Shown here one piece after another: positions 180 to 34,567 of a stretch of DNA of 35,892 bases. The position numbers were made by a program, and so were the translations under genes. The stretch is from a virus, in the IMG/VR virus record IMGVR_UViG_3300041405_000195, positions 1-35,892 of that record. One strand, given 5' to 3'. The notes below the pieces were generated by a model, which saw only the letters and a list, made by a program, of their open reading frames with translations, searched no databases and was not told where the DNA came from. Position 1 is the first letter of the stretch. Each line of letters begins with the position of its first letter.

Positions 180-187
180 GGCATCGG

Positions 188-3733: not shown

Positions 3734-3780
3734 GGCGCAGATGCTGCCTCTCGCGCGCGTGTCGTACCCGCCGCGCACGC

Positions 3781-3799: not shown

Positions 3800-3888
3800 A
3801 CACCGCCTCGTTGCCCGTAACGTGCCAGCTCCCGAACATGCCCTCAACGCAACGGCAGCAAGCCGCCACCGCATCGAGGACAGCCCCA

Positions 3889-7646: not shown

Positions 7647-7855
7647 TGGCCCAGCAGCTGCGCGCCATGCAAGGCGAAACGGTCGACGCCATCTGCTGGC
7701 GGCACTACGGCCGCACCGCCGGCGTCACCGAGGCCGTGCTCGAAGCCAACCCTGGCCTGGCCGACCTCGGCCCGATCCTGCCCCATGGCCACCTGATCAC
7801 CCTCCCCGAGCAAGCCCCCCAACCCCAACGTCAGATGGTGAATCTATGGGACTGA
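7646..7855 (+). CDS. X: Tail protein X (P2 gpX-like, LysM-like)
   Basis: 69 aa. The pattern GETVDAICWRHYGRT...LEANPGLA...LPHG is typical of gpX. Confidence 0.85.
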   Translation: MAQQLRAMQGETVDAICWRHYGRTAGVTEAVLEANPGLADLGPILPHGHLITLPEQAPQPQRQMVNLWD

Positions 7856-15779: not shown

Positions 15780-16970
15780 ATGCCAACTAGTTACCACCAC
15801 GGCGTCCGCGTCCTCGAAATCAACGAGGGCACCCGTCCGATCCGTACCATTTCCACTGCGGTCATCGGCATGGTCTGTACCGCCAGCGACGCCGACGCCG
15901 CCGTGTTCCCGCTCGACACCCCGGTACTGCTCACCGACGTGCTCAGCGCCATCGGTAGCGCCGGCGTGCTCGGCACCCTGGCCAAGTCCCTAGACGCCAT
16001 CGCCGACAACGCCAGTCCCTTCACCATCGTCGTGCGTGTGGCCGATGGCGATGGCATCGACGATGCCGCCAAGGCCGCCGACCAGACCAGCAAAATCATC
16101 GGCACCGTCACCGCCGAGGGTAAGTACACCGGCCTCAAGGCCCTGCTCGCCGCCAAGGCCAAGGTCAGCGTTACCCCGCGCATCCTCGGCGTGCCCGGGC
16201 TGGATTCCCTGCCGGTCGCCACCGAGCTGGTCGCTGTCGCCCAACAGCTGCGCGCCTTCGCCTACGTCTCGGCGTGGGAGTGCGCCACCAAGGAAGAGGC
16301 CGTCGCCTACCGCGAAAACTTCGGCGCCCGTGAGGTCATGGTCATCTGGCCCGACTTCATCAGCTGGGACACAACCGCCAATGCCGCTGCAGCTGCCCCC
16401 GCCACTGCCCGCGCCCTCGGCCTGCGCGCCAAGCTCGACCAGCAAGTGGGCTGGCACAAGACCCTGTCCAACATCCCGGTCAACGGCGTCACCGGCATCA
16501 GCCGCGACGTGTTCTGGGATCTGCAAAACCCCGCCACCGACGCCGGCTACCTCAACGCCAATGAGGTCACCACCCTCATCCAGGAGGGCGGCTTTCGCTT
16601 CTGGGGCTCGCGCACCTGCGCGGATGACCCGCTGTTCGCCTTCGAGAACTACACCCGCACCGCCCAGGTACTCGCCGACACCATCGCCGAGGCGCACCTG
16701 TGGGCCATCGACAAGCCCATGCACCCGTCCCTGGTGCGCGACATCCTCGAAGGCATCAACGCCAAGTTCCGCGAGCTCAAGGCCCTCGGCCTGATCGTCG
16801 ACGCCAACGCCTGGTACGACGAAGCGGCCAACAGCGCCACCACCCTCAAGGACGGCAAGTTGTATCTCGACTACGACTACACCCCCGTGCCGCCGCTGGA
16901 GAACTTGCAACTGCGCCAGCGCATCACCGACCGCTACCTGGTCGACTTCGCCGCCCGCATTTCCGGCTAA
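15780..16970 (+). CDS. FI: Tail sheath protein FI
   Basis: 396 aa, the same length as P2 FI, syntenic. Confidence 0.92.
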   Translation: MPTSYHHGVRVLEINEGTRPIRTISTAVIGMVCTASDADAAVFPLDTPVLLTDVLSAIGSAGVLGTLAKSLDAIADNASPFTIVVRVADGDGIDDAAKAADQTSKIIGTVTAEGKYTGLKALLAAKAKVSVTPRILGVPGLDSLPVATELVAVAQQLRAFAYVSAWECATKEEAVAYRENFGAREVMVIWPDFISWDTTANAAAAAPATARALGLRAKLDQQVGWHKTLSNIPVNGVTGISRDVFWDLQNPATDAGYLNANEVTTLIQEGGFRFWGSRTCADDPLFAFENYTRTAQVLADTIAEAHLWAIDKPMHPSLVRDILEGINAKFRELKALGLIVDANAWYDEAANSATTLKDGKLYLDYDYTPVPPLENLQLRQRITDRYLVDFAARISG

Positions 16971-20776: not shown

Positions 20777-21217
20777 ATGATGATGGCACTCGGCATGTTC
20801 GTCTTCGGCATGCACACCCTCGCCTACCAGGAGCTGCAACGGCAAACCGACTGGCGCCACGGCAGCACCTCGCGCATCGGCACCAACCCGGCGCGGCAGT
20901 TCATGGGCAAAGGCGAGGACGCCATCACCCTGCCCGGCGTGCTGCTCGCCGAAATCGCCGGCAGCCAGCTCAGCCTCGATGTCATCCGGCAAATGGCCGA
21001 CACCGGCAAGGCCTGGCCGTTGATCGAGGGCAGCGGGCGCATCTACGGCCTCTGGGTGATCGAATCCTTGAGCGAAACACGTACCCTGTTCTTCAGCGAC
21101 GGCGCCGCGCGGCGTATCGAGTTCACCATTAGCCTCAAGCGCATCGACGACGGCCGGGTGGATCTGCTCGGCAGCCTCACCGGCACCCTCGGCAACCTGA
21201 TCAGGCGCGTACTGTGA
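20777..21217 (+). CDS. U: Tail protein U
   Basis: 146 aa, syntenic. Confidence 0.88.
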   Translation: MMMALGMFVFGMHTLAYQELQRQTDWRHGSTSRIGTNPARQFMGKGEDAITLPGVLLAEIAGSQLSLDVIRQMADTGKAWPLIEGSGRIYGLWVIESLSETRTLFFSDGAARRIEFTISLKRIDDGRVDLLGSLTGTLGNLIRRVL

Positions 21218-22488
21218 TTGACCAACTGCTCAGCCGTGCCAACGGCCTGCTGCAGGGCGCAGCAGACAGCTACCGGCAACAGGCCAGCTACGCCCGGCCG
21301 ATCTGCCGCGTGCTGGTCGACGGCCGCGACATCACCGCCGCCATCGAGCAGCGCCTGGTCAGCATCACCCTCACCGATAACCGCGGGCTGGAGGCCGACA
21401 CCCTCGACATCCAGCTCAGCGACCACGACGGCCTGCTGGCCATCCCCCCGCACGGCGCCAGCGTGCGCCTCTGGCTCGGCTGGAGCGACACCGGCCTCAC
21501 CGACAAGGGCAGCTACACGGTGGACGAAACCGAGCACAGCGGCGCGCCCGACGTGCTCAGCATCCGCGCCCGCAGCGCCGACTTGCGCGAGGGCCTCAAA
21601 AGCAAACGCGAGCGCAGCTGGCACGCCGCCACCCTGGGCGACGTCATCAGCAGCCTGGCCGCTAGTAACGGCCTGCAAGCCCTCATCGCTCCAGTGCTGG
21701 CCGCCATCGGCCTGGCGCACCTCGACCAAGCCAACGAGTCCGACGCCAACCTGCTCGCTCGCCTGGGCGATCAGCATGACGCTATCGCCACCGTCAAAGC
21801 CGGGCGCCTGCTATTCATGCCCGCCGGCAAAAGCACCAGCGCCAGCGGCCTACCCCTGCCGCACATCACTCTCACCCGCCAGGACGGCGACCAGCACCGC
21901 TACCTGCAAGCAGACCGCGACAGCTACAGCGGCGTGCGCGCCTACTACTACGAGGTTAATAGCGCCGAGAAAAAGTCCGCCATCGCAGGCACAGGCGACA
22001 ACCTCAAGGATCTGCGCCACACCTACACCGACCAAGGCAGCGCCCTCAACGCTGCCCGCGCCGAATGGAGCCGCCTGCAGCGCGGCAGTGCCACCCTCAG
22101 CTACACCCTGGCCAAAGGCCGCCCGGAACTCATTCCCGAGCTGACCTACTCCCTGCACGGCATCAAGGCGGAAATCGGCGCGATCATCTGGCTCGGCGCC
22201 AACATCAACCACAGCTTCACCCCCGAGGCCTACACCACCAGCCTGGAACTGGAATCCAAACTGCCCGACGCCGAGGACCTGGCCGAGTTGGCCGACGACA
22301 GCGGCGACCACACCGGCATCCTCGCCTGGTACCGCGAAGAGCAAACCGCCGAGCAACGCAAGCTCACCGCCGGCGACCAGGCCAACCCCAAACGCCTAAC
22401 CCACCTCTACGCCGACAAAAGCGGCGCACAGCGGGCAGTGGATCGGGAGTGGTCTAAACTAACCAAAAATAACTTACCTAAGAGTTAA
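21214..22488 (+). CDS. D: Late control / tail protein D
   Basis: 424 aa with a GTGA overlap with U. The last roughly 20 nt already have the low GC of the following insert. Confidence 0.88.
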   Translation: MIDQLLSRANGLLQGAADSYRQQASYARPICRVLVDGRDITAAIEQRLVSITLTDNRGLEADTLDIQLSDHDGLLAIPPHGASVRLWLGWSDTGLTDKGSYTVDETEHSGAPDVLSIRARSADLREGLKSKRERSWHAATLGDVISSLAASNGLQALIAPVLAAIGLAHLDQANESDANLLARLGDQHDAIATVKAGRLLFMPAGKSTSASGLPLPHITLTRQDGDQHRYLQADRDSYSGVRAYYYEVNSAEKKSAIAGTGDNLKDLRHTYTDQGSALNAARAEWSRLQRGSATLSYTLAKGRPELIPELTYSLHGIKAEIGAIIWLGANINHSFTPEAYTTSLELESKLPDAEDLAELADDSGDHTGILAWYREEQTAEQRKLTAGDQANPKRLTHLYADKSGAQRAVDREWSKLTKNNLPKS

Positions 22489-22535
22489 GTGATCTGTTTC
22501 TATTACCCAGTTCCCCACATCAAAGGTACAAGCAT

Positions 22536-23345
22536 ATGACGCATCCTCTAGACGGCTGCCAAGCCAAACTTGAAAGAGCTCACGAAAGCATTATTTCTCT
22601 AGAAATCGAAATTCAAAAACACCTTAAAGAGTCCCCCCTTCCTAAAGTGATAGGTGCTTTCAAGCCTGACGGATTAATTTATGAATTCACCGCTTACGGC
22701 GGACCACTCACACCACTACGATTCCAGGTAATAACCGGAGAAATAATTCATCAACTTCGCTCTTGCTTGGATCATTTGGTTTATGCGCTGGTGATCCATA
22801 ACGGCAATAAACCAAGCACAGAAAACCAATTCCCAATTTTCAGCAAAGAATCTGACTTTAAGTCGCGACTAAAGGGAAAACTTCAGGGCATCTCGCATAC
22901 TGCTGTTGAAAAAATCACTGGAATGCAGCCCTTCAGGCAACAGATCCCTAATGACTCAACATTAAAAGTTGTTTCAGATTTAAACAATCAAGACAAGCAC
23001 AATCTATTAATCGTTGTCGCGGCGGCTGCAATTCTAAAGAAAGAAATTATAATTGATACCGATACAGAAATCGCAAAGCGACTTGATAGAGAGGGCCAAG
23101 AGGTTAAAATAGTAAATTTCATTTCCACAGATCCTTTGAAGAAAAAACTGACCGATGAAGGAACAGTATTCTTTTCAATCCAGCTTGCCGAGCCCGCACC
23201 AGAATTTGTTGCAAGAGCTGACGTCGCCCCATTTTTCGCCCTTGAGAAATGCGGGAGTCTAGAACTCCCCAACCTAACAAAGCTACTAATGCACCTACAC
23301 ACGGGAATTAAACAAACATTAGATCAATTCCACAGCGACTTCTAA
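22536..23345 (+). CDS. Low-GC 269-aa moron protein of unknown family (R-x4-H motif; defence candidate)
   Basis: Clean ORF with AAAGG about 10 nt upstream. Hand counts of two 60-nt lines give 40-43% GC, against clearly GC-rich flanks. It carries the motifs IIHQLRSCLDHLVYAL and NNQDKHNLL. Confidence 0.75.
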   Translation: MTHPLDGCQAKLERAHESIISLEIEIQKHLKESPLPKVIGAFKPDGLIYEFTAYGGPLTPLRFQVITGEIIHQLRSCLDHLVYALVIHNGNKPSTENQFPIFSKESDFKSRLKGKLQGISHTAVEKITGMQPFRQQIPNDSTLKVVSDLNNQDKHNLLIVVAAAAILKKEIIIDTDTEIAKRLDREGQEVKIVNFISTDPLKKKLTDEGTVFFSIQLAEPAPEFVARADVAPFFALEKCGSLELPNLTKLLMHLHTGIKQTLDQFHSDF

Positions 23346-23606
23346 CGAGTAATATTTTGGAAACGTCGACTGGCGCATGTACACCGACTAGACTTTCTTA
23401 TGTTGGGACTCATGTTGAACGGGATGTGATGCCCTCGCGAAGGGCTTCGCCCATGCGTTCGGGAGCCACTTCGCCGCTGATGGTTAGCAGGATCGATCGT
23501 CTATGCGGCGAGTGAATTTCAGTAGGTAGCGGGTGTTCTTGCGTAGGCGGAAGCATCAGCTAACTGTGATGCCACATACACCATAGCCTAAAGTCGAACT
23601 CCGACG

Positions 23607-23633
23607 AAAACCCCAGCACTAGGTCGGGGTTTT
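23607..23633. terminator. Bidirectional terminator between the moron and the lysogeny operon
   Basis: The stem is AAAACCCC paired with GGGGTTTT around an 11-nt loop. A-runs and T-runs are present on both sides. Confidence 0.65.
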
Positions 23634-23642
23634 CATCTTTCC

Positions 23643-23759
23643 TTATTTAGCTGACTGCGCGTACGCCTCCGATATCCGCAGGATGTCCCCCCGCTGCCGC
23701 TTGCTCAAAGAGCAATAAAGCCTGATCAGGCGTACCAGGTCGGTAAGGTTGCTAAACAT
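23643..23759 (-). CDS. 38-codon ORF (MFSNLTDLVRLIRLYCSLSKRQRGDILRISEAYAQSAK)
   Basis: It was not in the ORF track because it is under 60 aa. GGAG lies 6 nt upstream of the ATG, and the stop is 10 nt before the terminator. Confidence 0.4.
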   Translation of the reverse strand: MFSNLTDLVRLIRLYCSLSKRQRGDILRISEAYAQSAK

Positions 23760-23885
23760 GCTGCACTCCAGTCCATTTCCATGTGACGGGCGCCCGGTGC
23801 CAAACCAGCACCGTCTAAAACGCCCGGGAGCGTTCCATTGTCAGCATGTGGCAACGTGCCACCAGCGCAACCCCTTAAAATGTAA

Positions 23886-24128
23886 CTATTGAGTCGCGGC
23901 AGGCTGGCCGGTGATGACAAACCACACGTCAACATCGCTACGCGCATTCAGCGCCTGCAGGTAATCAACCGGGATTGGCTTGTTGCCTGACTCATAGTAG
24001 CGCTGGGTGGCATCCGGGCGGCCGGCCAGGTGGGCCAGTTCGTGTACCTCCAGCCCCAGCCGCTCACGCTCTGCGCGCAGGCGCGCGCCGAAGGCCATGT
24101 CGTCGTCGAGATCGATCAGTCCTGGCAC
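23886..24128 (-). CDS. XRE-family HTH protein, paralogue of the repressor N-terminal domain
   Basis: 80 aa with a GTG start and GAGGG 8 nt upstream. FGARLRAERERLGL...VDVWFVITG parallels GERLREERDRLGL...VDVHYVLTG in the repressor. Confidence 0.75.
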   Translation of the reverse strand: MPGLIDLDDDMAFGARLRAERERLGLEVHELAHLAGRPDATQRYYESGNKPIPVDYLQALNARSDVDVWFVITGQPAATQ

Positions 24129-24454
24129 AGCGCAAGCCCTCGCTCGATAAGTGGCGCCACACTGAGCTTGGCATCCGGTGCCGCTGGGTCATCCCGCCAG
24201 ATCGGCGCCAGCGGCTCCAGAGCCAGACGCGCGGCCTTAGCGTTGGCAGTGCCGTTGAGCGGGTACATCCGTCCGCTTTCCGGATCTGAGGCCACCACCG
24301 CGCCGCCATCCAGACACAGCAGGTGCACCTCATCGAGCGTAAGCGGCCAGTCAGAGCCATAGGCGGCGGCATCCAGCAACTCGATTTTCCCAGCATTGAC
24401 GCCCTGGCTGATGATGGCTGCCAGCGCCATAGATGCGGTGAAAATTCCTTTCAA
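24116..24454 (-). CDS. Secreted YebY/DUF2511-like protein, translationally coupled to the repressor
   Basis: The TTG start at 24454 overlaps the repressor TGA (TTGA), with AGGAGAGG 4 nt upstream. The N-terminus MKGIFTASMALAAIISQGVNA-GK looks like a Sec signal. The mature part resembles E. coli YebY, including two Cys (LLCLDGG, LALCQD). Confidence 0.65.
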   Translation of the reverse strand: MKGIFTASMALAAIISQGVNAGKIELLDAAAYGSDWPLTLDEVHLLCLDGGAVVASDPESGRMYPLNGTANAKAARLALEPLAPIWRDDPAAPDAKLSVAPLIERGLALCQD

Positions 24455-24813
24455 GGTGCCTCTCCTACAGATCTCTTTATCACGACGTAATTCGCCAGCG
24501 CATCGACCACGCGCTCGACCGAAGCCCGGCTCTCCGGTGACATCGTCCGGTACTGCTCGAGCACCTTGGCTTCCTCCTCCGTCAGGCCATCGGCATCCAT
24601 CGGCGACCGAATACCCGTCAGCACGTAATGCACGTCCACCCCCATGCCCTGCAGGGTGCTGAGGTAGCGGATATCGGGCGAGCTGCTTTCCAGCTCGTAG
24701 GCCTTTTGCGTGCCGCGGCTGACCCCCGCCGCGACGCCGAAATCGGTCTGATTCAGCCCCAGCCGATCCCGTTCTTCTCTCAGGCGTTCGCCTACTCCTG
24801 ATGCTATGAGCAT
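24451..24813 (-). CDS. CI/C-type immunity repressor (XRE HTH plus C-terminal extension)
   Basis: 120 aa from the ATG at 24813, divergent from the early operon. The HTH segment is GLNQTDFGVAAGVSRGTQKAYE. Confidence 0.8.
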   Translation of the reverse strand: MLIASGVGERLREERDRLGLNQTDFGVAAGVSRGTQKAYELESSSPDIRYLSTLQGMGVDVHYVLTGIRSPMDADGLTEEEAKVLEQYRTMSPESRASVERVVDALANYVVIKRSVGEAP

Positions 24814-24831
24814 TTTTTTGATCAATATCAG

Positions 24832-24860
24832 TTGACTTGAACAGAAATCTGCCCAAGAAT
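24832..24860 (+). promoter_or_regulatory. Candidate early promoter Pe (TTGACT-17 nt-AAGAAT)
   Basis: Hexamers are at 24832-24837 and 24855-24860, 38 nt before the Cro-like start. The palindrome TTGATCAA (24818-24825) lies just upstream. Confidence 0.4.
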
Positions 24861-24897
24861 CCCCTTCATCCAACACGATTAAACACGGACGAACACT

Positions 24898-25098
24898 ATG
24901 CATGCCCTTCTCACTCCCGAGCAAGCCCGCGCGGCTCTTGACCGCGAGGGGAAAAGCATCGCCGAGTTCTGCCGCGAGCATGACCTGAACAGAAATCTGG
25001 TCAGCGACCTATTGAACGGTCGCAAAAAGGGTAAGCGCGGCGAAGCACATCGCGCCGCTGTGCTGCTCGGCATCAAAGAAGGCGTGGTTAAAAAGTAA
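24898..25098 (+). CDS. Small Cro/Ner-like DNA-binding early regulator
   Basis: 66 aa, the first gene of the rightward operon. The segment SIAEFCREHDLNRNLVSDLLNGRKKGKRGEAHRAAVLLGIK is HTH-like. Confidence 0.6.
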   Translation: MHALLTPEQARAALDREGKSIAEFCREHDLNRNLVSDLLNGRKKGKRGEAHRAAVLLGIKEGVVKK

Positions 25099-25595
25099 TG
25101 CGCACAGGGTCAGGGGAAAACCAGAAGATGAAACGCCAGATTCTAGAAACCCGCCGCCAGGTCATGAGCGTGGTGGTAAGTGCCTACCCGGGCGGCCGTG
25201 AGTGCGCCGCCGCCCGCCTCGGGCTGGCCGTCAAGAAGCTCGACAACCACGTCTACGAGAACGCCGGCAGCCAGCCCCTGACCGACGCCCAACTGCACCA
25301 GCTCGAGCAAATGGCCGGTACCAACCACCTGCCGGACTACATCTGCGCCCTCTACGGCGGCGTGTTCGTCGCCATGCCGGAGGCCGAGACACTGGACAAC
25401 CTCGACCTCTATACCCGCTGCATGACCACCGCCGTCAAGCGCGGCGCGGTAGACACGCTGATCGCCGCAGCCCTGGCAGATGGCAGCATCGACGAAGCCG
25501 AACTGGCCGAGATCATCGTCGCCCACCGCCAGCACATCGCCGCCCGCCACGCCGAAGTCGGCGCCGTCATCACCTTGCACCGGAGGAAACCATGA
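25098..25595 (+). CDS. Phage regulatory CII (CP76/186 CII)-like protein
   Basis: 165 aa, with an alternative start at 25128. Position and pattern (..ADGSIDEAELAEII..) fit the family. Confidence 0.55.
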   Translation: MRTGSGENQKMKRQILETRRQVMSVVVSAYPGGRECAAARLGLAVKKLDNHVYENAGSQPLTDAQLHQLEQMAGTNHLPDYICALYGGVFVAMPEAETLDNLDLYTRCMTTAVKRGAVDTLIAAALADGSIDEAELAEIIVAHRQHIAARHAEVGAVITLHRRKP

Positions 25596-25879
25596 GCACC
25601 TACAAACTGGTGTGCCCGCACTGCCAAGGACGCATGCGCATCCGCACCAGCGAGGGCCAGCACATATTCCTGCGTATCGCCTACCTGCAATGTACCAACG
25701 AGGCCTGTAGCTGGAGCGTGCGCGCCGAGTTCCAGATGACCCACGAACTGGGCCCCAGCGGCATGGCGAACCCCACCGTGCAGTTGCCCCAGGCCAACAG
25801 CGCCCACCGCCGGGCCTGCATGCGCACCCAACACGACGCACAACTCGACCTGGTCGACCAACTGGAGATGCACTCATGA
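25592..25879 (+). CDS. ogr: Ogr/Delta-type zinc-finger late gene activator
   Basis: 95 aa from the internal ATG at 25592. CPHC-x22-CTNEAC matches the Ogr C-x2-C...C-x4-C pattern. YKLVCPHCQGRMRIRTS...YLQCTNEAC parallels P2 Ogr. Confidence 0.8.
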   Translation: MSTYKLVCPHCQGRMRIRTSEGQHIFLRIAYLQCTNEACSWSVRAEFQMTHELGPSGMANPTVQLPQANSAHRRACMRTQHDAQLDLVDQLEMHS

Positions 25880-26520: not shown

Positions 26521-26768
26521 ACCACGCCGTTAAAACCGCCCTCGAGGCCCGCCACATCGCCTGCATGCCCAAGGCCCTGGACTGGCTCAGCCAACTGGAG
26601 AAAGCCGCGCGCCCAGGCAGTTTTCTGGGCGCTGCCGAATACCAGGGCCGGCTGACCGGCTACCTCATGGCCATGGCCGACCACGACCTCATTCAATGGG
26701 CCGTCACCCAGCGGGCCCTGCGCGACCTACAAACCCTCGCCACCACCTGGGAGCAGTCAGGCCAATGA
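26517..26768 (+). CDS. Hypothetical protein (83 aa)
   Basis: ATGA overlaps at both ends. Confidence 0.5.
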   Translation: MNHAVKTALEARHIACMPKALDWLSQLEKAARPGSFLGAAEYQGRLTGYLMAMADHDLIQWAVTQRALRDLQTLATTWEQSGQ

Positions 26769-29491
26769 AGACGATGGAACGCGAGATCCGTAGCGAAGTA
26801 CTGCGCCGCCTGGAATCCGACTACGGCCTGCAGCACGCCAAGGGCACGCCCTGGATGCGCAAGGGAACCTGCCCGAGCTGCGGCAAAAAGGAGCTTTATT
26901 CCCGCCAGGACGAGCCCTGGTTCATCCGCTGTGGCCGCGAGAGCAAGTGCGGTGAGCAGTGGCACGTCAAAGAGCTGTTCGAGGATCTGTTCGACGACTG
27001 GAGCAAGCGCGCCCCGGCCAGCGAAGCGGCCCCCAACGCCTCGGTCGACAGCTACCTGCAGTTCGCCCGCGGCTTCGACCTGAGCCGGATCAAGGGCTGG
27101 TACAGCCAGGACAACTACTGGGATCGCGCCCAGGGCATCGGCAGCGCCACCGTGCGCTTCCCCCTGGACAAAGGCGGCTACTGGGAACGCCTCATCGACC
27201 GCCCGCACCGCTTCGGCAAGATGAAAGCCCGCTTCGCCCCCGGCCAGTCGCCTCGCGGCCACTGGTGGTGCCCGCCATGCATCGACCTGCTCGAGGCCAC
27301 GGAACTGTGGATAGTCGAGGGCATCTTCGACGCCATCGCTCTGCTGCACCATGGCATCGCCGCCGTGTCGGCCATGAGCAGCGCCTACTTCCCCGAGGAA
27401 TCGCTCAAGGAATTGTCCCGCCTGCGCGGCGGCAAACTGCCCAAGCTGGTCTGGGCGCTGGACAACGAGCCCGGCGCGCACCGCTACACCCGCAAGCACG
27501 TCAAGCTGGCCCGCGAGCTGGGCTACAGCTGCACGGCCGCGCAGATTCCCCAGCGCGATCGCAAGGCCGACTGGAACGACCTGCACCAGCGCTGGGCGTT
27601 TATCGACGACGCCGACAAGCGCGCCGACAAGGTCGAGCGCGACCTCAAGGAAGCCCGCTACCACGGCGCCCTGCTGCTGGCCGAAAGCGCCGCCGAGAAG
27701 GGCGTGTTGATGTACGAATGGCGCGAGCGCCACGAGTTCCACTTCGGCTTCGAGAGCCGCCTGTACTGGTTCAAGATGGATCTGGATAAGTTCAACAAGG
27801 CCATGCAGCACCTGGAGCAGTCCGAGCGCCAGGAAGATCAGTTGCTCAATGACAAGCAGGTCCGCGAGAAAGCCCTGCGCCAGTGCGGCGCCGTGGTCGA
27901 GATCGCCAACTGCTACCCCACCGCCCTGTACTTCCAGCGCAACGAGGTCACCGACGAGTCCTGGTACTACTTCCGCGTCGACTTCCCGCACGACGCCCCA
28001 GCGGTGCGCAACACCTTCACCGGTGGCCAGGTGGCCGCCGCCAGCGAGTTCAAGAAGCGCCTGCTCGGCATGGCCGCCGGCGCCGTATTCACCGGTACCG
28101 GTGGCCAGCTCGACAAGATCATGAAAGACCAGCTGTACGGCCTGAAAACCGTGCAGACCATCGACTACGTGGGCTACAGCAAAGAGCACGCCTGTTATGT
28201 GTTCGGCGACGTGGCGGTGCATGGCGGCCTGGTCGAGAAGGCCAACGCCGAGGACTACTTCGAGTTCAAGAAGCTGCGCCTCAAGACCCTGCAGAAGTCC
28301 ATCCGCCTGGAAATCGCCCGCGACAGCCACGGCTACCGGGAGGAGTGGCTCGACTGGCTGTGGACCTGTTTCGGCGCCCAGGGCGTGATCGCCCTGGGCT
28401 TCTGGTTTGGCTCGCTGTTCGCCGAGCAGATCCGCGCCGAGTTCCAGTCCTTCCCGTTTCTGGAGGTGACCGGCGAGGCCGGCGCCGGCAAATCGACCCT
28501 GCTGATGTTCCTCTGGAAGCTGCTCGGCCGCCCCGACGAAGAAGGCAAAGACCCCTCGAAGATGAGCCGCGCCGGCCTGCGCCGCTGGATGGGCCAGGTA
28601 TCGGGCATGCCCCTGGTGCTGCTCGAGGCCGACCGCAGCGACAACGACCGCGGCCCGGCCAAGGCCTACGACTGGGACGAGCTAAAGCCCCTGTTCAACG
28701 GCGGCACCCTGGGCGTCACCGGCGTCAAGACCGCCGGCAACGAAACCCACGAACCACCCTTTCGCGGCACCATCGCCATCAGCCAAAACGCCACTGTGGT
28801 GGCCTCTGAGGCCATCCTCACGCGCATCATCAAGCTGCACTTCGTCCGCCCGCAGGTCACCAGCGCCAGCCGCGCCGCCGCCGACAACCTCAACCACCTC
28901 TCGGCCATGGACGTCAGCCACTTTCTGCTGCTGGCAACCAAGGCCGAGCAGCCGGTGCTCGAGGTGTTCCGCCGCCAGGTCAAGGTGCATGAGCAAGCCC
29001 TGCGCGCCCTCAACCAGATCCGCGTCGAGCGAATCATCAAGAACCATGCCCAGCTGATGGCAGCGGTAGACGCCATGCGCCTGATGGTGGCCCTCACCGA
29101 CCAGCAGCACAGCGCCGCCATGACCGAGCTGACCCGCATGGCGGTCGAGCGCCAAGGCGCAATCAACGCCGACCCGCAAGAAGTGGCCGAGTTCTGGGAG
29201 GTGTTCGAGTACCTGGAGACGATCAGCGACGAAGCCGTGGTGGACCACAGCAAAAACCCCGAGCTGATCGCCATCAACCTCAACGAATTCTGCGAGCGCG
29301 CCGCCGAGCACCGCCAGAAGCTCGCCGATATCGCCACCCTGCGCAACCTGCTCAAGAGCAGCCGCAGCCGCACCTTCATCGAGAGCAACAAGAGCGTCGA
29401 CAGCGCCGTGCGCGCCGCCTTCAACGCCCGCAACGGCGGCATAGCCGCCCGCTGCACCACCGTCAAATGCTGGATTTTCAACAAACCGTAA
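26765..29491 (+). CDS. Replication protein: Zn-ribbon plus TOPRIM primase plus P-loop helicase (P4 alpha-like organisation)
   Basis: 908 aa from the ATG at 26765. It carries CPSCG...C..C, the TOPRIM motifs LWIVEGIFDAIAL and WALDNEPGA, Walker A GEAGAGKST (28472-28498) and Walker B-like LVLLEAD. Confidence 0.85.
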   Translation: MKTMEREIRSEVLRRLESDYGLQHAKGTPWMRKGTCPSCGKKELYSRQDEPWFIRCGRESKCGEQWHVKELFEDLFDDWSKRAPASEAAPNASVDSYLQFARGFDLSRIKGWYSQDNYWDRAQGIGSATVRFPLDKGGYWERLIDRPHRFGKMKARFAPGQSPRGHWWCPPCIDLLEATELWIVEGIFDAIALLHHGIAAVSAMSSAYFPEESLKELSRLRGGKLPKLVWALDNEPGAHRYTRKHVKLARELGYSCTAAQIPQRDRKADWNDLHQRWAFIDDADKRADKVERDLKEARYHGALLLAESAAEKGVLMYEWRERHEFHFGFESRLYWFKMDLDKFNKAMQHLEQSERQEDQLLNDKQVREKALRQCGAVVEIANCYPTALYFQRNEVTDESWYYFRVDFPHDAPAVRNTFTGGQVAAASEFKKRLLGMAAGAVFTGTGGQLDKIMKDQLYGLKTVQTIDYVGYSKEHACYVFGDVAVHGGLVEKANAEDYFEFKKLRLKTLQKSIRLEIARDSHGYREEWLDWLWTCFGAQGVIALGFWFGSLFAEQIRAEFQSFPFLEVTGEAGAGKSTLLMFLWKLLGRPDEEGKDPSKMSRAGLRRWMGQVSGMPLVLLEADRSDNDRGPAKAYDWDELKPLFNGGTLGVTGVKTAGNETHEPPFRGTIAISQNATVVASEAILTRIIKLHFVRPQVTSASRAAADNLNHLSAMDVSHFLLLATKAEQPVLEVFRRQVKVHEQALRALNQIRVERIIKNHAQLMAAVDAMRLMVALTDQQHSAAMTELTRMAVERQGAINADPQEVAEFWEVFEYLETISDEAVVDHSKNPELIAINLNEFCERAAEHRQKLADIATLRNLLKSSRSRTFIESNKSVDSAVRAAFNARNGGIAARCTTVKCWIFNKP

Positions 29492-29538: not shown

Positions 29539-29667
29539 ACCCACGACAACGACCAAACCAGCGGCCTGGAACTCGCCCTCACCCTGATCGGCAGCGCCAT
29601 CGCCCTGGTAGCGCTGGTAGCCATCGCCAGCCAAGTGCCCGACCTGCTGCTGGCCCTCGCCCGCTAA
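29533..29667 (+). CDS. 44-aa small membrane protein
   Basis: Strong AAGGAGA RBS and one hydrophobic helix (LELALTLIGSAIALVALVAIA). Confidence 0.5.
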   Translation: MQTHDNDQTSGLELALTLIGSAIALVALVAIASQVPDLLLALAR

Positions 29668-29674
29668 CCCACCG

Positions 29675-29696
29675 CCAAAGGAGAAGCACCATGCAA
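29675..29696 (+). repeat. 22-nt RBS/start module, copy 2
   Basis: Exact repeat. Confidence 0.9.
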
Positions 29697-30047
29697 ACAG
29701 CACGTGACCGCATACAAGACGACCTCAACCGCCTGGCAGTGGAAGAAGCCGAGCGGCCCTACATCCGACAGGCCGGCATCGAGGCCCTGCACCGGCTGGT
29801 GCCGGTAGCGCAGCGCGACAGCGGACAGAGCCGCATCGTCGGTTGCTTCCTGCTCGGCCTCTATAACGGCAGCGCCTTCCCCTTCCCACTCACCGACCTG
29901 CGCGGGCTGGACACGGCACTGTGGAACGACTGCATGGCGCTGCTGCGCCTGGACCGGCGCCCCGAACAAGAGATGCATGAGTACATCGAGAACGGCGAGG
30001 CGATCTGGTCGCAACTGAAAAAAGACTGGGCGCCACGCGCCAACTGA
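29691..30047 (+). CDS. Hypothetical protein (118 aa)
   Basis: Preceded by the same 22-nt RBS/start module as its neighbours. Confidence 0.6.
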   Translation: MQTARDRIQDDLNRLAVEEAERPYIRQAGIEALHRLVPVAQRDSGQSRIVGCFLLGLYNGSAFPFPLTDLRGLDTALWNDCMALLRLDRRPEQEMHEYIENGEAIWSQLKKDWAPRAN

Positions 30048-30107
30048 CACCGGCCAAGCCGGAAAAAGACAGCGCCGAGGGGCTGCAACCCCTCGACGCC
30101 AACCACC

Positions 30108-30129
30108 CCAAAGGAGAAGCACCATGCAA
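30108..30129 (+). repeat. 22-nt RBS/start module, copy 3
   Basis: Exact repeat. Copies 1 and 3 also share GGGCTGCAACCC 13-16 nt upstream. Confidence 0.9.
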
Positions 30130-30387
30130 GTGAATCAACCCCAAGGCGGCAGCGCAGAGGCTAGCACGAACACCTTCGCCATCGGCGACAAGATCAGCTA
30201 TGTGAAGGTCACCAGCAGCGGCAACAGCTACCGCTTTAGCGCCCGTGAAGGCGTCATCACCGAAATCAACGGCCAGGTGGCCACCGTCAAGGCACGCAAT
30301 GGCCGCACCACTACCCAGCAGCTCAACAAGCTAACCCCGGAAGGCCAGCCCAATGCGCTGACCCGCGCGCTGATGGGGGGTAACTGA
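30124..30387 (+). CDS. Hypothetical protein (87 aa)
   Basis: Preceded by the same 22-nt RBS/start module. Confidence 0.6.
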   Translation: MQVNQPQGGSAEASTNTFAIGDKISYVKVTSSGNSYRFSAREGVITEINGQVATVKARNGRTTTQQLNKLTPEGQPNALTRALMGGN

Positions 30388-30389
30388 TC

Positions 30390-30995
30390 ATGACTCACTA
30401 CTTCTATAAGTCCGAAGCCCCCGCCGTTGTCGCCCTGGTCAGCGACTGGTTCAAACAAAGGGCCGCATTCGACGCTCAACGTAAACAGCTGGGTAAGGTT
30501 TTCGGCGCCGCAACCTCGCCGATGAGTTCAGGCGACAGCACCTACGTCGGCGGCGTGAAGCTCAGCGCCAGTTGTGAACTGGACGTGCACTGGCGTCGGC
30601 CCGATGACTACGGTTACCGCTGCCTGCGCCACAAGGCGATGCCACCCAAGGGCACCAGCAAGGAAGACCGTACCGCCATGCGCGCCGAGCATGAGCGCCT
30701 ACAAGCCCTTTGGGAGCAGCACTGCCCGAAGCGCATCAGCAGCGACGAAACGTGGCAGCAGCTCAACGTCAACACCGGCAACCTATGGATGTGCGGCGGC
30801 GTGATGTTCGAACTGAGCGGCACCACCTACTTTGCCCTCGGCTTCCAGATCAACAAGTCCGAGCACCACGACAACGTCGCGGCCGGCAAACCAACCGCCG
30901 GCTGGATCGAAGGCGCCATCGAGATCCTGCCCAGCGAATACGAAGCCGCCCGCACCAAGAAGCTCGAGCAGCAAAAGGAGGTGGCTAGTGCCTAA
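30390..30995 (+). CDS. Hypothetical protein (201 aa)
   Basis: Clean ORF starting 2 nt after the previous stop. No family was recognised. Confidence 0.6.
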   Translation: MTHYFYKSEAPAVVALVSDWFKQRAAFDAQRKQLGKVFGAATSPMSSGDSTYVGGVKLSASCELDVHWRRPDDYGYRCLRHKAMPPKGTSKEDRTAMRAEHERLQALWEQHCPKRISSDETWQQLNVNTGNLWMCGGVMFELSGTTYFALGFQINKSEHHDNVAAGKPTAGWIEGAIEILPSEYEAARTKKLEQQKEVASA

Positions 30996-31203
30996 CCCAA
31001 CCACCACCGACCGCACCCGCCCACCGTTGGCCAGCCACCGCCTGAGCCTGCCCAGCATCTGCGACATCTGCGGCAAAGCCCGCTCCACCCGCAAGCACCA
31101 GGCCTGCAGCCGCCTGCGCCAACAACTCAAAGCCGCCGAGTGGGAAACCACCCTGGCCGAGAAGACTGCGAAAGCAGCCAGGGGGCGACGTTATGCTCGC
31201 TAA
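30988..31203 (+). CDS. 71-aa basic Cys/His-containing protein (C-x2-C-x9-H-x2-C)
   Basis: GTG start at 30988 with AAGGAGG 6 nt upstream. It overlaps both neighbouring genes. Confidence 0.5.
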   Translation: MPNPTTTDRTRPPLASHRLSLPSICDICGKARSTRKHQACSRLRQQLKAAEWETTLAEKTAKAARGRRYAR

Positions 31204-32983: not shown

Positions 32984-34215
32984 ACCATCAAGCCGATATC
33001 TTCGCCGCCGGCGCCCAGCGCCTGCAGATGACCGACAGCATAGAGCTGACCATTCAGTCCCTGCTGGCCTACGGTGAATCGCATGAGCACTGGGGCATTG
33101 CCTGGTCTGGCGGAAAGGATTCCAGCGCCACCCTGACGCTGATCATGTACCTGATCGACTCCAGCAAGATCCCGGCACCGAAGACCCTCACCGTGTTCTA
33201 TGCCGACACCCGCCAGGAGCTGCCGCCGCTGGCGATCGCCGCCCAGCAGATCATGGACGAGTTGGCGGAGCGCGGCGTGCGCATCGAGGTGGTCACTGCG
33301 CCGATGGACAAGCGTTTCATGGTCTACATCCTCGGCCGCGGTGTGCCGCCGCCGAACAACAACACGCTGCGCTGGTGTACCCGGCAGATCAAGATCGACC
33401 CGATGCAAGCAGCGCTCGAGCACCGCCTGGCCGAGCTCGAGGGCAACGTGCTGATGATCACCGGCGTGCGCCAAGGCGAAAGCGCGATCCGCGACAAGCG
33501 CATAGAGATGAGCTGCGGCAAGGATGGCGCCGAGTGTGGCCAGGGCTGGTACCAGAAGGTGCTGCCCGAAGCGAAGGGCCTGCGCGGCCGCCTGGCCACC
33601 CTGGCACCGCTGCTGCACTGGCGCGTCTGCCATGTGTGGGAGTGGCTCAAGCACTGGGCGCCACAAGCCGAGTTCGGCGACTGGTCGACCGCTACCGTTG
33701 CCGACGCCTACGGCGGCGACGAGGCCGAAGAAATCAACGCGCGCACCGGCTGTATCGGTTGCCCGCTGGCCAGCGAGGACAAGGCGCTCGATACCATCCT
33801 GCTCAACCCTGCATGGGCGTACCTGCGACCGCTCAAGGGCATCAAGACTCTCTGGCGCGAGCTGCGCGAGCCACAGCACCGCCTGCGTAAGGCAGGCTTC
33901 GAGTACTTGAAGGACGGCAGCGCGGCAGCGAATCCCCAGCGCATGGGACCGCTCACCTTTGAGGCTCGACTGATGGGGCTGGAACGCATCCTGGGCATCC
34001 AGGCCAAGGTCAACACAGCGGCGGATCGCCTCGGCCGTCCGCACATCGACCTGATCAACGCCGAGGAGGAGGCCCGCATCCGCGAACTGATCGCCGCCGG
34101 CACCTGGCCGAACGGCTGGGCCGGCGACGAACCCACCGCCGACACCCCAATGGATCAAATCAACGCTGACGGCTCGGTGCAGCCACTGCTGTTCCTGGAG
34201 GTGCAGCATGGCTGA
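32980..34215 (+). CDS. PP-loop ATP pyrophosphatase of the PAPS-reductase/DndC-like family
   Basis: SGGKDS (33106-33123), a downstream RWCTRQIK motif, and Cys clusters SCGKDGAEC and GCIGCP that suggest an Fe-S site. Confidence 0.75.
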   Translation: MNHQADIFAAGAQRLQMTDSIELTIQSLLAYGESHEHWGIAWSGGKDSSATLTLIMYLIDSSKIPAPKTLTVFYADTRQELPPLAIAAQQIMDELAERGVRIEVVTAPMDKRFMVYILGRGVPPPNNNTLRWCTRQIKIDPMQAALEHRLAELEGNVLMITGVRQGESAIRDKRIEMSCGKDGAECGQGWYQKVLPEAKGLRGRLATLAPLLHWRVCHVWEWLKHWAPQAEFGDWSTATVADAYGGDEAEEINARTGCIGCPLASEDKALDTILLNPAWAYLRPLKGIKTLWRELREPQHRLRKAGFEYLKDGSAAANPQRMGPLTFEARLMGLERILGIQAKVNTAADRLGRPHIDLINAEEEARIRELIAAGTWPNGWAGDEPTADTPMDQINADGSVQPLLFLEVQHG

Positions 34216-34524: not shown

Positions 34525-34567
34525 CCGGCCAGTAAGCTGGATTTTTCGCAATAGCGTGGGGACGCAA

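What the first reader, a model, noticed from the sequence alone, without database searches (positions are those of the whole stretch)
22489..23345. Low-GC single-gene moron between tail gene D and the immunity region: candidate anti-phage effector with an R-x4-H motif
Seen: base composition collapses about 20 nt before the D stop and recovers after about 23400. Hand counts of lines 22621-22680 and 22981-23040 give 43% and 40% GC, while the late genes on either side are visibly far more GC-rich. The segment holds one clean 269-aa ORF with an AAAGG RBS and no TM or signal sequence. The protein has an N-terminal amphipathic helix, then IIHQLRSCLDHLVYAL (R75-x4-H80, nt 22758-22775) and a second conserved-looking NNQDKHNLL motif. 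It ends about 260 nt before a bidirectional terminator. Known: P2-like phages carry lysogen-expressed exclusion or defence cargo in variable loci bordering the conserved late operon (tin, old, fun/Z; these hotspots have been described as rich in antiviral systems). R-x4-6-H is the HEPN RNase signature common in abortive-infection proteins. Inference: this is horizontally acquired cargo, plausibly a single-protein defence or exclusion factor. I do not recognise the family, which is why it is worth a look.
Basis: partly seen in the sequence, partly recalled or inferred. Interest (0 to 1): 0.72.

Follow-up and report, generated by a model that had tools for sequence, protein, structure and literature searches.

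The report
Unannotated mobile cargo gene in prophage
A low-GC single gene slotted after the tail genes of a P2-like Pseudomonas prophage belongs to a very large, unnamed protein family with no recognisable fold that also rides on insertion sequences, other phages and plasmids; it is a good but unproven candidate for a new anti-phage or mobile-element conflict gene.

Summary
A 269-aa ORF (22536-23345, +) lies in a GC trough of 41.9% against 64.6% for the phage (z = -7.8). It sits between tail gene D and the repressor side of a complete P2/phiCTX-like prophage.

Against the closest relative, the swapped module is 22453-23637, from the last 12 gpD codons to the terminator. In 80 related phages this junction varies from about 200 nt to 3.7 kb. 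It holds 82 ORF clusters, including PD-Lambda-5, PDC-S06, PDC-M18 and a type II methyltransferase. "Acquired cargo at a variable, defence-bearing site" is therefore supported.

The HEPN reading is not supported. No Pfam, PADLOC, NCBIfam or PDB match exists. Two confident AlphaFold models found no PDB fold match. The R-x4-H lies mid-way along the second helix, and H80 is less conserved than H155, K154, D79 or R75.

New result: the family is large (18,775 clusters at 50% identity) and every source calls it hypothetical. In 30 of 89 loci it lies within about 3 kb of an IS1595 transposase. In 16 it sits inside the inverted repeats, 13 with perfect 8-bp target duplications. Near-identical IS backbones carry alleles only about 40% identical.

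Best guess: a stand-alone sensor-effector defence or exclusion enzyme (about 0.4). An IS-retention or addiction role is not excluded.

The parts
22453..23637 (.). Swapped cargo module relative to the closest related phage: last 12 codons of gpD, leader, cargo ORF, 3' UTR and terminator
   Evidence: blastn against L149: 91% identity up to 22452, resuming at 85% from 23638. L149 has 2557 nt of different sequence (GC 44.7%) in between.
22432..23362 (+). Portable cassette (about 100 nt leader + ORF + 17 nt) shared with unrelated prophages L001 (P. corrugata) and L002-L004. Homology to L002-L004 extends left to 22347.
   Evidence: blastn 79-83% identity; alignments A3 and A4 show homology ending about 17 nt after the stop codon. 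The gene is 42-43% GC in all three backgrounds.
22522..22526 (+). AAAGG ribosome-binding site, 9 nt before the ATG; conserved as AAAGG in L001 and L002
   Evidence: Sequence; alignment A3.
22536..23345 (+). Cargo ORF, 269 aa, member of a large unannotated family
   Evidence: dN/dS 0.19-0.25. AlphaFold mean pLDDT 89.8, pTM 0.85.
22536..23015 (+). Conserved N-terminal helical domain (aa 1-160): helix 6-32, beta-hairpin 37-54, helix 61-88, short helices 105-152
   Evidence: DSSP of the models; conservation profile. Distant relatives align only over about aa 1-165.
22740..22775 (+).
   Evidence: Counts in 349 sequences: R75 340, S76 335, D79 343, H80 323 (Tyr 12), H72 313 (Tyr 26), E69 312 (Asp 31).
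22992..23000 (+). D153-K154-H155 motif at the end of the last N-domain helix; H155 is the most invariant polar residue of the family
   Evidence: H155 in 347 of 347 residue-bearing sequences, K154 344, D153 332.
23016..23273 (+). Variable beta-rich region (aa 161-246), candidate specificity or sensor part
   Evidence: Lowest column conservation (mean top-residue frequency 0.26, against 0.49 for the N-domain) and indel-rich. Strands 161-236 in the model.
23274..23342 (+). Conserved C-terminal helix (aa 247-269)
   Evidence: Helix 247-263; conservation recovers to 0.40 and L251 is at least 90% conserved.
23603..23637 (.). Terminator-like hairpin closing the module; the first terminator after the late tail operon
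   Evidence: Inverted repeat of 12-nt arms. RNA fold -19.8 kcal/mol, z = -3.5, followed by a U-rich tract. No terminator-like site lies between gpD and the ORF.
21214..22488 (+). Tail gene D (left backbone anchor); its last ~36 nt belong to the acquired segment
   Evidence: Pfam Phage_GPD; breakpoint at 22452.
23643..23759 (-). 38-aa backbone ORF, the first conserved feature to the right of the module
   Evidence: 100% identical by tblastn in L149; sequence read.
23886..24128 (-). HTH_31 protein (right backbone anchor, immunity side)
   Evidence: Pfam; used as an anchor in related phages.

Best explanation
The segment is a self-contained, horizontally exchanged one-gene module (leader, ORF, terminator). 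It sits in a hypervariable cargo site between tail gene D and the immunity region of a P2/phiCTX-like Pseudomonas prophage.

Its product belongs to a very large, unnamed protein family with no recognisable fold. The family moves as a single gene on many kinds of mobile element: IS1595-family transporter insertion sequences, temperate phages of Proteobacteria and Actinobacteria, plasmids and integrative islands.

Most likely mechanism (inferred, not shown): the protein is a stand-alone sensor-effector that protects the carrier cell or element against competing phages or other invaders.
- The conserved N-terminal helical domain would be the enzymatic effector. It has a polar cluster of R14, E69, H72, R75, D79, H80 and D153-K154-H155, and probably acts on a nucleic acid or nucleotide.
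- The fast-diverging beta-rich region (aa 161-246) would set what is recognised.
- Allele swapping on otherwise identical carriers would renew specificity.

In this phage the gene can be transcribed at least by read-through from the late tail operon. It may also be transcribed from its own conserved leader in the lysogen.

What is shown: acquisition, module boundaries, family size, carriage by IS, phages and plasmids, module swapping, purifying selection, and the absence of a partner gene. What is inferred: enzymatic activity, a defence role, and the sensor role of the variable region.
For: Acquired module:
- GC 41.9% against 64.6%, z = -7.8, and GC3 0.39 against 0.87.
- Breakpoints at 22452 and 23638 against the closest relative.
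- The same cassette occurs in unrelated prophages.

Variable, defence-bearing site:
- The gap between gpD and the first immunity-side anchor is 206-3700 nt in related phages.
- 33 loci hold 82 ORF clusters at this site.
- PADLOC hits at the site: PD-Lambda-5 A and B, PDC-S06, PDC-M18 A and B, MTase_II.

Functional gene: dN/dS 0.19-0.25.

Enzyme-like conservation: H155 347/347, K154 344, D79 343, R75 340 and R14 338 of 349 sequences.

Modular protein: conserved N-domain, variable aa 161-246, conserved C-terminal helix.

Single-gene unit:
- No conserved neighbour among 104 flanking ORFs of IS-free loci.
- Minimal IS elements of 1.9-2.05 kb hold only the transposase and this gene.

Mobile-element carriage:
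- An IS1595 transposase lies close by (within about 3 kb) in 30 of 89 loci.
- The gene is inside the IRs in 16 loci, 13 of them with a perfect 8-bp TSD, against 0.0005 by chance.
- It occurs in Gordonia and Mycobacterium temperate phages, on actinobacterial plasmids, and in integrase islands beside HigB/HTH_3, SocA_Panacea, HATPase_c_3, KAP NTPase, CHAT and SLATT_5.

Conflict-type dynamics:
- Transposases 90-93% identical carry passengers only 39-46% identical.
- In L056/L084 there is a sharp DNA-identity breakpoint at the passenger start.
- A 2026 study describes the same pattern, 'identical core genes, completely different defences', for P2/P4 defence loci.
Against: - There is no sequence or fold similarity to any known defence protein.
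- Defence or TA genes make up only about 7 of 104 immediate neighbours of IS-free copies. Many copies sit among housekeeping genes, and some are stably fixed there.
- A passenger on an insertion sequence could serve the element rather than the host.
- No promoter was identified upstream. The gene points the same way as the late operon, whereas most cargo at this junction in relatives points the other way. Expression in the lysogen is therefore unknown.
- dN/dS among close alleles shows no positive selection.
- The loci sampled were the best 80 pattern matches plus a few others, so the 34% IS linkage is not an unbiased estimate.
Confidence: 0.4

Rival explanations
1. One reading: the protein is a HEPN-superfamily RNase of the abortive-infection type. 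R75-x4-H80 would be the catalytic motif, and the enzyme would cleave RNA on infection.
For: - The R-S-x-L-D-H sequence fits the Rx4-6H pattern with a polar residue after the Arg. R75 is present in 340 and H80 in 323 of 349 sequences.
- The domain is mostly helical.
- The carriage on mobile elements and the location of the gene resemble known Abi genes.
Against: - No HEPN Pfam family matches the protein, even at E <= 10, and none matches 70 relatives at E <= 0.01.
- No PDB sequence match exists, either with the single sequence or with the family profile.
- Foldseek of the full-length model and of the N-domain model gives no significant hit. The only HEPN chain (7ae9) appears at rank 49, E = 6.8, TM 0.26.
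- The motif lies in the middle of the second helix (61-88), after a single helix and a hairpin. From my knowledge of the HEPN fold (Anantharaman et al. 2013), the motif should open the last core helix.
- H80 is the least constrained of the conserved polar residues: Tyr in 12 members, and also N, W, Q, L and R. H155 never varies.
- Caveat: Foldseek is weak on small helical bundles, so remote HEPN ancestry is not strictly excluded.
Confidence: 0.1
2. The gene serves the mobile element rather than the host. It would act as an addiction, retention or transposition-modulating factor. For example, it could be a fused toxin/antitoxin-like protein that penalises loss of the element, or a factor that acts on the donor or target site. 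It would then persist in phages and plasmids for the same selfish reason.
For: - It is strongly and repeatedly embedded inside IS1595-type elements, in two gene orders and hard against an IS end.
- Such elements are fixed in populations at housekeeping sites.
- It is carried by every class of mobile element sampled.
- TA modules are frequent neighbours.
Against: - Transposase and passenger do not co-diverge closely: Mantel r = 0.38, and 92.6%-identical transposases carry 39.5%-identical passengers. That argues against a specific partnership with the transposase.
- 59 of 89 loci have no such transposase within about 4 kb, and none of them, nor the window, carries the IS-end signature.
- Stand-alone copies are under purifying selection.
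- No antitoxin-like partner is conserved.
- From my own knowledge, most IS1595-family elements have no passenger at all.
Confidence: 0.2
3. The protein is a counter-defence or establishment factor. It would help an incoming element (phage, plasmid, or an IS riding on them) overcome host immunity.
For: - It is carried by many kinds of transferable element.
- It shows rapid allele replacement.
- In the window it is co-transcribable with late genes.
Against: - Many copies are chromosomal, stable and not on transferable elements.
- Anti-defence genes are usually small and expressed early, whereas this is a 250-270 aa, enzyme-like protein at the end of a late operon.
- The same site in relatives holds defence systems, not anti-defence systems.
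Confidence: 0.1
4. The protein is an ordinary accessory enzyme or regulator with no role in genetic conflict. It would be hitch-hiking on mobile elements in the way resistance or metabolic passengers do.
For: - Many copies lie among housekeeping genes.
- No defence signature of any kind was found.
- The family is very abundant in soil bacteria.
Against: - Swapping of 40%-identical alleles on near-identical carriers is unusual for a metabolic passenger.
- There is no link to any operon or pathway.
- The gene occupies moron positions in three unrelated temperate-phage lineages.
Confidence: 0.15

Closest known systems
Morons and defence cargo of P2-like phage hotspots (old, tin, Z/fun; the systems of Rousset et al. 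2022 and the 2026 NAR survey)
   Same: - A compositionally foreign module with its own terminator sits between conserved backbone genes.
- The site is hypervariable among relatives and sometimes holds PADLOC-recognised systems.
- The cassette is shared with unrelated elements.
   Different: - The site (gpD to repressor side, in a phiCTX-type gene order) is not one of the hotspots listed for E. coli P2-likes: GpA-GpQ, downstream of GpL, and integrase-att or integrase-primase.
- The gene matches no known defence family.
- It is co-oriented with the late operon, unlike most cargo at this site.
Transporter insertion sequences (tIS) of the IS1595 family (by my recollection of ISfinder, the ISNwi1-like subgroup with GGnnATTAT-type ends and 8-bp duplications)
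   Same: - Family members lie between the terminal inverted repeats, together with a DDE_Tnp_IS1595 + Zn_ribbon_IS1595 transposase.
- The elements are 1.9-2.8 kb, have GG(T/G/C)AA... tips and perfect 8-bp target duplications.
- The literature says tIS are restricted to the IS1595 and IS66 families.
   Different: - The window copy has no transposase and no IS ends.
- I found no description of this passenger family or of its allele swapping. I could not read the primary IS1595 paper or the IS reviews, so prior mention as a 'hypothetical ORF' cannot be excluded.
HEPN-domain abortive-infection proteins (AbiD/AbiF, AbiV, AbiU2, AbiJ and similar)
   Same: - Single gene, carried on mobile elements.
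- Mostly helical conserved domain with an R-x4-H string.
   Different: - No profile or fold match.
- The motif sits in an atypical position.
- H80 is replaceable, while a separate D-K-H motif is invariant.
Fused single-protein sensor-effectors of prophages (CapRel-type logic)
   Same: By analogy only: a conserved effector part plus a fast-varying part in one polypeptide, encoded by temperate phages, with no partner gene.
   Different: - No homology.
- Neither toxicity nor a phage trigger has been shown.
- The variable part here is internal (aa 161-246) and is followed by a conserved helix.

Membership tests
HEPN superfamily | Conserved Rx4-6H motif | tested here: inconclusive
   R75 is present in 340 of 349 sequences. 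H80 is present in 323; it is Tyr in 12, with other replacements in a few. The string fits the pattern, but the His is not invariant.
HEPN superfamily | Match to any HEPN family profile (Pfam HEPN clan) | tested here: not met
   0 Pfam families for the protein at E <= 10. No HEPN family among 70 relatives at E <= 0.01.
HEPN superfamily | Four-helix up-and-down bundle with the motif at the start of the last core helix (from my knowledge of Anantharaman et al. 2013) | tested here: not met
   In both AlphaFold models the motif lies mid-way along helix 61-88, preceded by only one helix and a beta-hairpin.
HEPN superfamily | Structural similarity to solved HEPN domains | tested here: not met
   Foldseek against PDB gives best E = 0.017 (TolC-like, TM 0.14) for the full-length model and best E = 1.2 for the N-domain model. 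The HEPN toxin 7ae9 appears at rank 49 with E = 6.8. Foldseek is weak on helical bundles, so this result carries less weight.
HEPN superfamily | Metal-independent RNase activity | not testable with these tools
   Needs biochemistry.
Phage moron / variable cargo locus | Lies between conserved backbone genes at a site whose content differs among close relatives | tested here: met
   Breakpoints at 22452 and 23638 against L149. The gap is 206-3700 nt and holds 82 ORF clusters among relatives.
Phage moron / variable cargo locus | Foreign base composition | tested here: met
   GC 41.9% against 64.6%, z = -7.8; GC3 0.39 against 0.87.
Phage moron / variable cargo locus | Own promoter and terminator | tested here: inconclusive
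   A terminator hairpin lies inside the module. A conserved ~100-nt leader travels with the gene, but no sigma-70-like site was found upstream.
Known anti-phage defence systems (PADLOC-DB v2) | Match to a defence protein model | tested here: not met
   0 hits for the protein. Among 70 relatives there were only two stray hits: mad2 on a methyltransferase fusion, and HEC-06 at E = 0.006, which is at chance level for 70 queries.
Known anti-phage defence systems (PADLOC-DB v2) | Located where defence systems occur | tested here: met
   PD-Lambda-5 A and B, PDC-S06, PDC-M18 A and B and MTase_II occupy the same junction in related phages. Stand-alone relatives lie beside SLATT_5, CHAT, KAP NTPase, HATPase_c_3, SIR2_2 and RM genes.
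IS1595-family transporter IS passenger | Adjacent DDE_Tnp_IS1595 transposase | tested here: not met
   For the window copy: none is present. For the family: 30 of 89 loci have one close by, within about 3 kb.
IS1595-family transporter IS passenger | Gene enclosed by the terminal inverted repeats, with an 8-bp target duplication | tested here: not met
   For the window copy: no IS-end sequence anywhere in the window. For the family: 16 elements are enclosed by IRs, and 13 of these have a perfect 8-bp TSD, against 0.0005 by chance.
Type II toxin-antitoxin module | Conserved small partner gene next to the toxin | tested here: not met
   No conserved neighbour was found. Minimal IS elements hold only the transposase and this gene, and the extra small ORFs in longer elements vary.

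The most novel reading that the evidence does not exclude
The family is a new, fold-level-novel class of single-protein immunity (or exclusion) enzyme whose main vehicle is an insertion sequence. IS1595-type elements would act as the smallest known carriers of defence genes. Alleles would be swapped as cassettes on near-identical transposon backbones, and the same gene would be captured independently by temperate phages and plasmids.
Probability: 0.3. Interest if true: 0.85.

Novelty: new variant of a known kind. Interest (0 to 1): 0.62.

Why it matters
If the protein is a defence or exclusion enzyme, it would add a large family to the immune repertoire. The family has about 18,800 clusters at 50% identity and is spread across Proteobacteria, Acidobacteriota, Actinomycetota, Chloroflexota and others. 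No current tool (Pfam, PADLOC, NCBIfam, PHROGs) recognises it.

It would also show that simple insertion sequences, and not only phages, satellites, Tn7-like transposons and integrative islands, spread immunity genes and shuffle their alleles.

Even if the role is selfish (IS retention), a conserved accessory protein of a DDE insertion sequence would be of interest to transposon biology, given the enzyme-like site and the unmatched fold.

The work also gives concrete targets for testing. The most constrained residues are H155, K154, D79 and R75, rather than H80. Natural allele pairs on identical backbones (L056/L084, and L034/L078/L081) are available for specificity swaps.

Tried and rejected
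- **Curated libraries, single protein:** Pfam, PADLOC, PHROGs and NCBIfam gave nothing usable. The only hits were phrog_4729 at E = 0.028 and a HilD model at E = 0.11, both noise.
- **Curated libraries, 70 relatives:** the same libraries returned only fusion-partner or chance hits.
- **PDB by sequence:** neither the single sequence nor the profile found anything.
- **Fold search:** Foldseek of the full-length model against PDB and BFVD, and of the N-domain model against PDB, returned only the family's own unnamed actinophage members.
- **Conserved partner gene:** ORF clustering found only the antisense shadow ORF and the transposase. Flanking ORFs of IS-free loci are heterogeneous.
- **IS remnant in the window:** no IS ends, no flanking repeats of note and no transposase. 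The window copy is not a decayed IS.
- **Orphan copies as transposase-less IS derivatives:** the IS-end signature occurs only at transposase loci.
- **Strict co-evolution with the transposase:** rejected.
- **Multi-copy bursts:** proteins seen on many contigs turned out to be the same locus in many samples.
- **Structured RNA, or a phage match, for the 23346-24200 spacer:** none.
- **Promoter scan upstream of the gene:** nothing.
- **Literature on IS1595 passengers or IS-borne defence:** nothing about this family. The main IS reviews are not held.
- **Model coordinates:** not available to scripts, so I could not check whether the conserved residues cluster in 3D.
Full report
**1. The observation**

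The window is a complete P2/phiCTX-like prophage. Pfam identifies:
- portal (947-1972, -) and terminase (1973-3958, -);
- sheath (15780-16970), gpU (20777-21217) and gpD (21214-22488);
- two leftward HTH genes (23886-24128 and 24451-24981);
- Cox-like and CII-like genes, and Ogr (25592-25879);
- a Toprim primase (26696-29491) and an integrase (34556-35734).

Its nearest records among sequenced phages are phiCTX, Dobby and similar Pseudomonas phages.

The ORF 22536-23345 (+, 269 aa) exists as described. The segment 22489-23345 is 41.9% GC. Equal-length windows elsewhere average 64.6% (sd 2.9%), so z = -7.8, and this is the lowest such window in the contig. GC3 is 0.39, against 0.87 in gpD.

AAAGG lies 9 nt before the ATG. 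R75 and H80 map to 22758-22775, and NNQDKHNLL is present. The only hydrophobic stretch (aa 157-175) is a beta-strand in the model rather than a TM helix.

The hairpin at 23603-23637 folds at -19.8 kcal/mol (z = -3.5) and is followed by a U-rich tract.

**2. Boundaries and origin of the segment**

The closest related phage in the viral collection is L149, whose gpD is 92% identical. It is collinear with the window at 91% DNA identity up to 22452 and again at 85% from 23638. In between it has 2557 nt of unrelated, 44.7%-GC sequence.

The exchanged module in the window is therefore 22453-23637. It comprises the last 12 codons of gpD, a leader, the ORF, a 3' UTR and the terminator.

A smaller cassette (about 22432-23362, extending left to 22347 for one comparison) recurs at 79-83% DNA identity in two unrelated prophage backgrounds. 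One is a lambdoid-type P. corrugata prophage (L001). The other is a metagenomic element with a methylase and an integrase (L002-L004). In both, the gene keeps about 42% GC although the hosts are 54-56% GC.

Homology covers about 100-190 nt of leader, including the AAAGG, and stops 17 nt after the stop codon. L002 even keeps a non-coding remnant that matches the gpD 3' end.

Among these three alleles dN/dS is 0.19-0.25, so the gene is functional.

**3. Is the junction a cargo site?**

I examined the 80 best of 462 related gpD loci. The distance from the gpD stop to the first immunity-side anchor ranges from 206 to 3700 nt, mostly with depressed GC. None of these loci encodes the family protein.

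Thirty-three loci with defined gaps yield 118 ORFs in 82 clusters, most of them on the repressor-side strand.

PADLOC recognises several of them strongly: PD-Lambda-5 A and B (E down to 1e-96 and 5e-111), PDC-S06 (8e-292), PDC-M18 A and B, and a type II methyltransferase.

So the site is a true variable locus that sometimes carries known or candidate defence systems.

The literature places the main hotspot of E. coli P2-likes between GpA and GpQ. It lists minor ones downstream of GpL, between integrase and att, and between integrase and primase (PMC13586616). The gpD-to-repressor junction of this phiCTX-type gene order is not among them.

**4. The protein and its family**

- **No curated match.** Pfam, PADLOC, PHROGs and NCBIfam return no meaningful hit.
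- **Family size.** A word-indexed search found only 17 relatives. An exhaustive profile search found 18,775 clusters at 50% identity with E <= 1e-3, and 14,012 with E <= 1e-10. Most are 240-280 aa and match full length.
- **No name anywhere.** A profile search of the named database returned 412 hits. Every one that carries a name is a 'hypothetical protein', and none has a Pfam domain. RefSeq plasmid and GenBank phage records say the same.
- **No fold match.** AlphaFold models are confident: full length pLDDT 89.8 and pTM 0.85; N-domain pLDDT 89.5. Foldseek finds nothing in the PDB for either model. In the viral library it finds only the family's own unnamed members.
- **Architecture.** Helix 6-32, beta-hairpin 37-54, long helix 61-88, short helices up to residue 152, a beta-rich region 161-236, and helix 247-263.
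- **Conservation along the chain.** It is high in aa 1-20, 61-80 and 141-160, lowest in aa 161-246, and recovers in the last helix.
- **Conserved residues.** Counts among 349 non-redundant sequences are in the table below.

| Residue | Sequences with the window residue | Main replacement |
|---|---|---|
| H155 | 347 (all 347 with a residue at this column) | none |
| K154 | 344 | R (2) |
| D79 | 343 | N (3) |
| R75 | 340 | A (4) |
| R14 | 338 | W (3) |
| S76 | 335 | A, T (5 each) |
| D153 | 332 | E (8) |
| H80 | 323 | Y (12) |
| H72 | 313 | Y (26) |
| E69 | 312 | D (31) |

This is an enzyme-like pattern.

**5. HEPN?**

- **For:** the string fits Rx4-6H, and the domain is helical.
- **Against:** there is no profile match, no PDB sequence match and no fold match.
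- **Also against:** the motif sits in the middle of the second helix. From my knowledge of the HEPN fold, it should lie at the start of the last core helix.

**6. The unexpected result: an insertion-sequence passenger**

I fetched 80 genomic and 7 viral loci for the family. I then clustered all ORFs within 4 kb of the family gene, adding five loci fetched earlier. In two loci no intact family ORF could be called, which leaves 89.

- **Transposase linkage.** One real neighbour cluster is shared by 30 of 89 loci. Pfam identifies it as DDE_Tnp_IS1595 plus Zn_ribbon_IS1595. Twenty-six of the 30 lie within 1.2 kb of the family gene. It occurs in tandem, convergent and divergent orders. L020 and L021, whose proteins align with most or all of the window protein at 35% identity, are among these loci.
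- **Enclosure by the IS ends.** In 16 loci, inverted repeats of 22-43 nt enclose both genes.
- **Target duplications.** In 13 of the 16, a perfect 8-bp duplication abuts GG(T/G/C)AA... tips. A randomised control gives 0.0005. The elements are 1.9-2.8 kb. The smallest contain only the transposase and this gene, and the longer ones add variable small ORFs.
- **Classification.** These are transporter IS. The literature restricts tIS to the IS1595 and IS66 families (TnCentral preprint). By my recollection of ISfinder, the ends and the 8-bp duplication fit the ISNwi1-like subgroup.
- **The window copy.** It has no transposase and no IS ends. IS-free copies in other genomes also lack the IS-end signature.

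**7. Dynamics**

Transposase and passenger are decoupled:

| Elements compared | Transposase identity | Passenger identity |
|---|---|---|
| L056 / L084 | 92.6% | 39.5% |
| L034 / L078 / L081 | 90-91% | ~46% |
| L028 / L063 | 82% | 36% |

The overall Mantel correlation is only r = 0.38.

Along L056/L084, DNA identity is 87-96% through the transposase and up to the passenger start. It then drops to about 55%, and to background beyond the gene. The passenger module has therefore been swapped among near-identical backbones.

**8. Contexts without an IS**

- **Phages.** Gordonia phages ZiggyZoo and Samba carry it as gp32, between the tail genes and the integrase. Mycobacterium prophage prophiGD13-2 carries it as gp34, a reverse-oriented gene beside the terminase.
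- **Plasmids.** Actinobacterial plasmids carry it beside a recombinase, a replication-relaxation gene, or a helicase plus a methyltransferase.
- **Islands.** It occurs in integrase-bounded islands beside HigB/HTH_3, SocA_Panacea, HATPase_c_3, KAP NTPase, CHAT, SLATT_5 and DUF2971.
- **Immediate neighbours.** The 104 nearest ORFs at IS-free loci show no conserved partner. They are a mix of housekeeping genes with some defence or TA genes: Methylase_S x2, SIR2_2 x2, Mrr_cat, RES and PemK.
- **Stable copies.** Some copies are fixed at housekeeping sites in natural populations.

**9. Interpretation**

*Shown:*
- The segment is an acquired one-gene module at a hypervariable, defence-bearing junction.
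- The gene is functional and needs no partner.
- Its family is very large, unnamed and matches no known fold.
- It is carried by insertion sequences, phages, plasmids and islands.
- Its alleles are exchanged as cassettes.

*Inferred:*
- The N-domain is an enzyme.
- The variable region sets specificity.
- The biological role is defence or exclusion.

I give that reading about 0.4. A selfish IS-retention, addiction or transposition-modulating role gets about 0.2, counter-defence about 0.1, and a non-conflict accessory function about 0.15. The HEPN-RNase version of the defence reading gets about 0.1.

In this phage the gene follows gpD after 47 nt with no terminator between them. Late read-through is therefore expected. 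Whether the conserved leader holds a promoter active in the lysogen is unknown.

**10. Novelty and score**

A compositionally foreign moron in a phage cargo site is a known kind of thing. Three features are not ordinary. The family is large yet invisible to every curated library. Confident models find no fold match. The family lives mainly as an IS1595 passenger with swapped alleles.

I found no description of this in the searchable literature. I could not read the primary IS1595 paper or the IS reviews.

I classify the finding as a new variant of a known kind, with interest 0.62.

Noticed in passing
window 31193-34215 (also 29664-30995): A second cargo region lies between the primase and the integrase: a C5 cytosine DNA methylase (31193-32983) overlapping a PAPS-reductase-like gene (32980-34215), plus two ORFs with no Pfam match. 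It falls in the stretch that corresponds to the canonical P2 GpA-GpQ hotspot.
   Followed up: partly
window 1-550: A low-GC (42-49%) stretch at the contig end beside the portal gene. It has no convincing ORF and no tRNA. It may be the att or cos region, or host flank.
   Followed up: partly
window 23643-23759 (-): A 38-aa ORF (MFSNLTDLVRLIRLYCSLSKRQRGDILRISEAYAQSAK) lies just right of the terminator. It is 100% identical in the closest related phage L149, so it is probably a real backbone gene of unknown role.
   Followed up: partly
L034 9078-9227; L078 9127-9282; L081 2812-2958; L027 2553-2735: The longer IS1595-type elements carry a conserved ~49-aa basic ORF (MNEGPEA.KRFR.AVKTILSVPKSAL...KKQKPK) between the family gene and the transposase. 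They also carry variable 90-110-aa helical ORFs next to the family gene.
   Followed up: no
L002 about 7817-7940: Upstream of its copy of the gene, L002 (not a P2-like element) keeps a non-coding remnant that aligns with the 3' end of gpD in the window. This suggests that its cassette was once lifted from a P2-like gpD junction.
   Followed up: partly
L034, L056, L084, L052 and L076 IS flanks: The 8-bp target duplications of these elements are often palindromic or nearly so (CTAATTAG, CCTGAAGG, CCTTTAGG, AATCGGTT). This hints at a symmetric target preference.
   Followed up: no
L098-L101, 25 nt upstream of the family gene: A conserved 209-aa gene with no Pfam match immediately precedes the family gene in a Desulfobacillus-like island, beside HigB/HTH_3, an IS91 transposase, an integrase and a mer operon.
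   Followed up: no
family alignment, positions 72 and 80 of the window protein: H72 and H80 are each replaceable by Tyr (26 and 12 of 349 sequences; both are Tyr in 2), whereas H155 never varies. If there is a catalytic His, it is more likely H155.
   Followed up: partly
L149 5353-7431 (-): At the same junction, the closest related phage carries a 692-aa ORF plus a 92-aa ORF on the opposite strand in a 44.7%-GC insert. I could not tell which PADLOC model, if any, it matches, because only summary counts were returned.
   Followed up: partly
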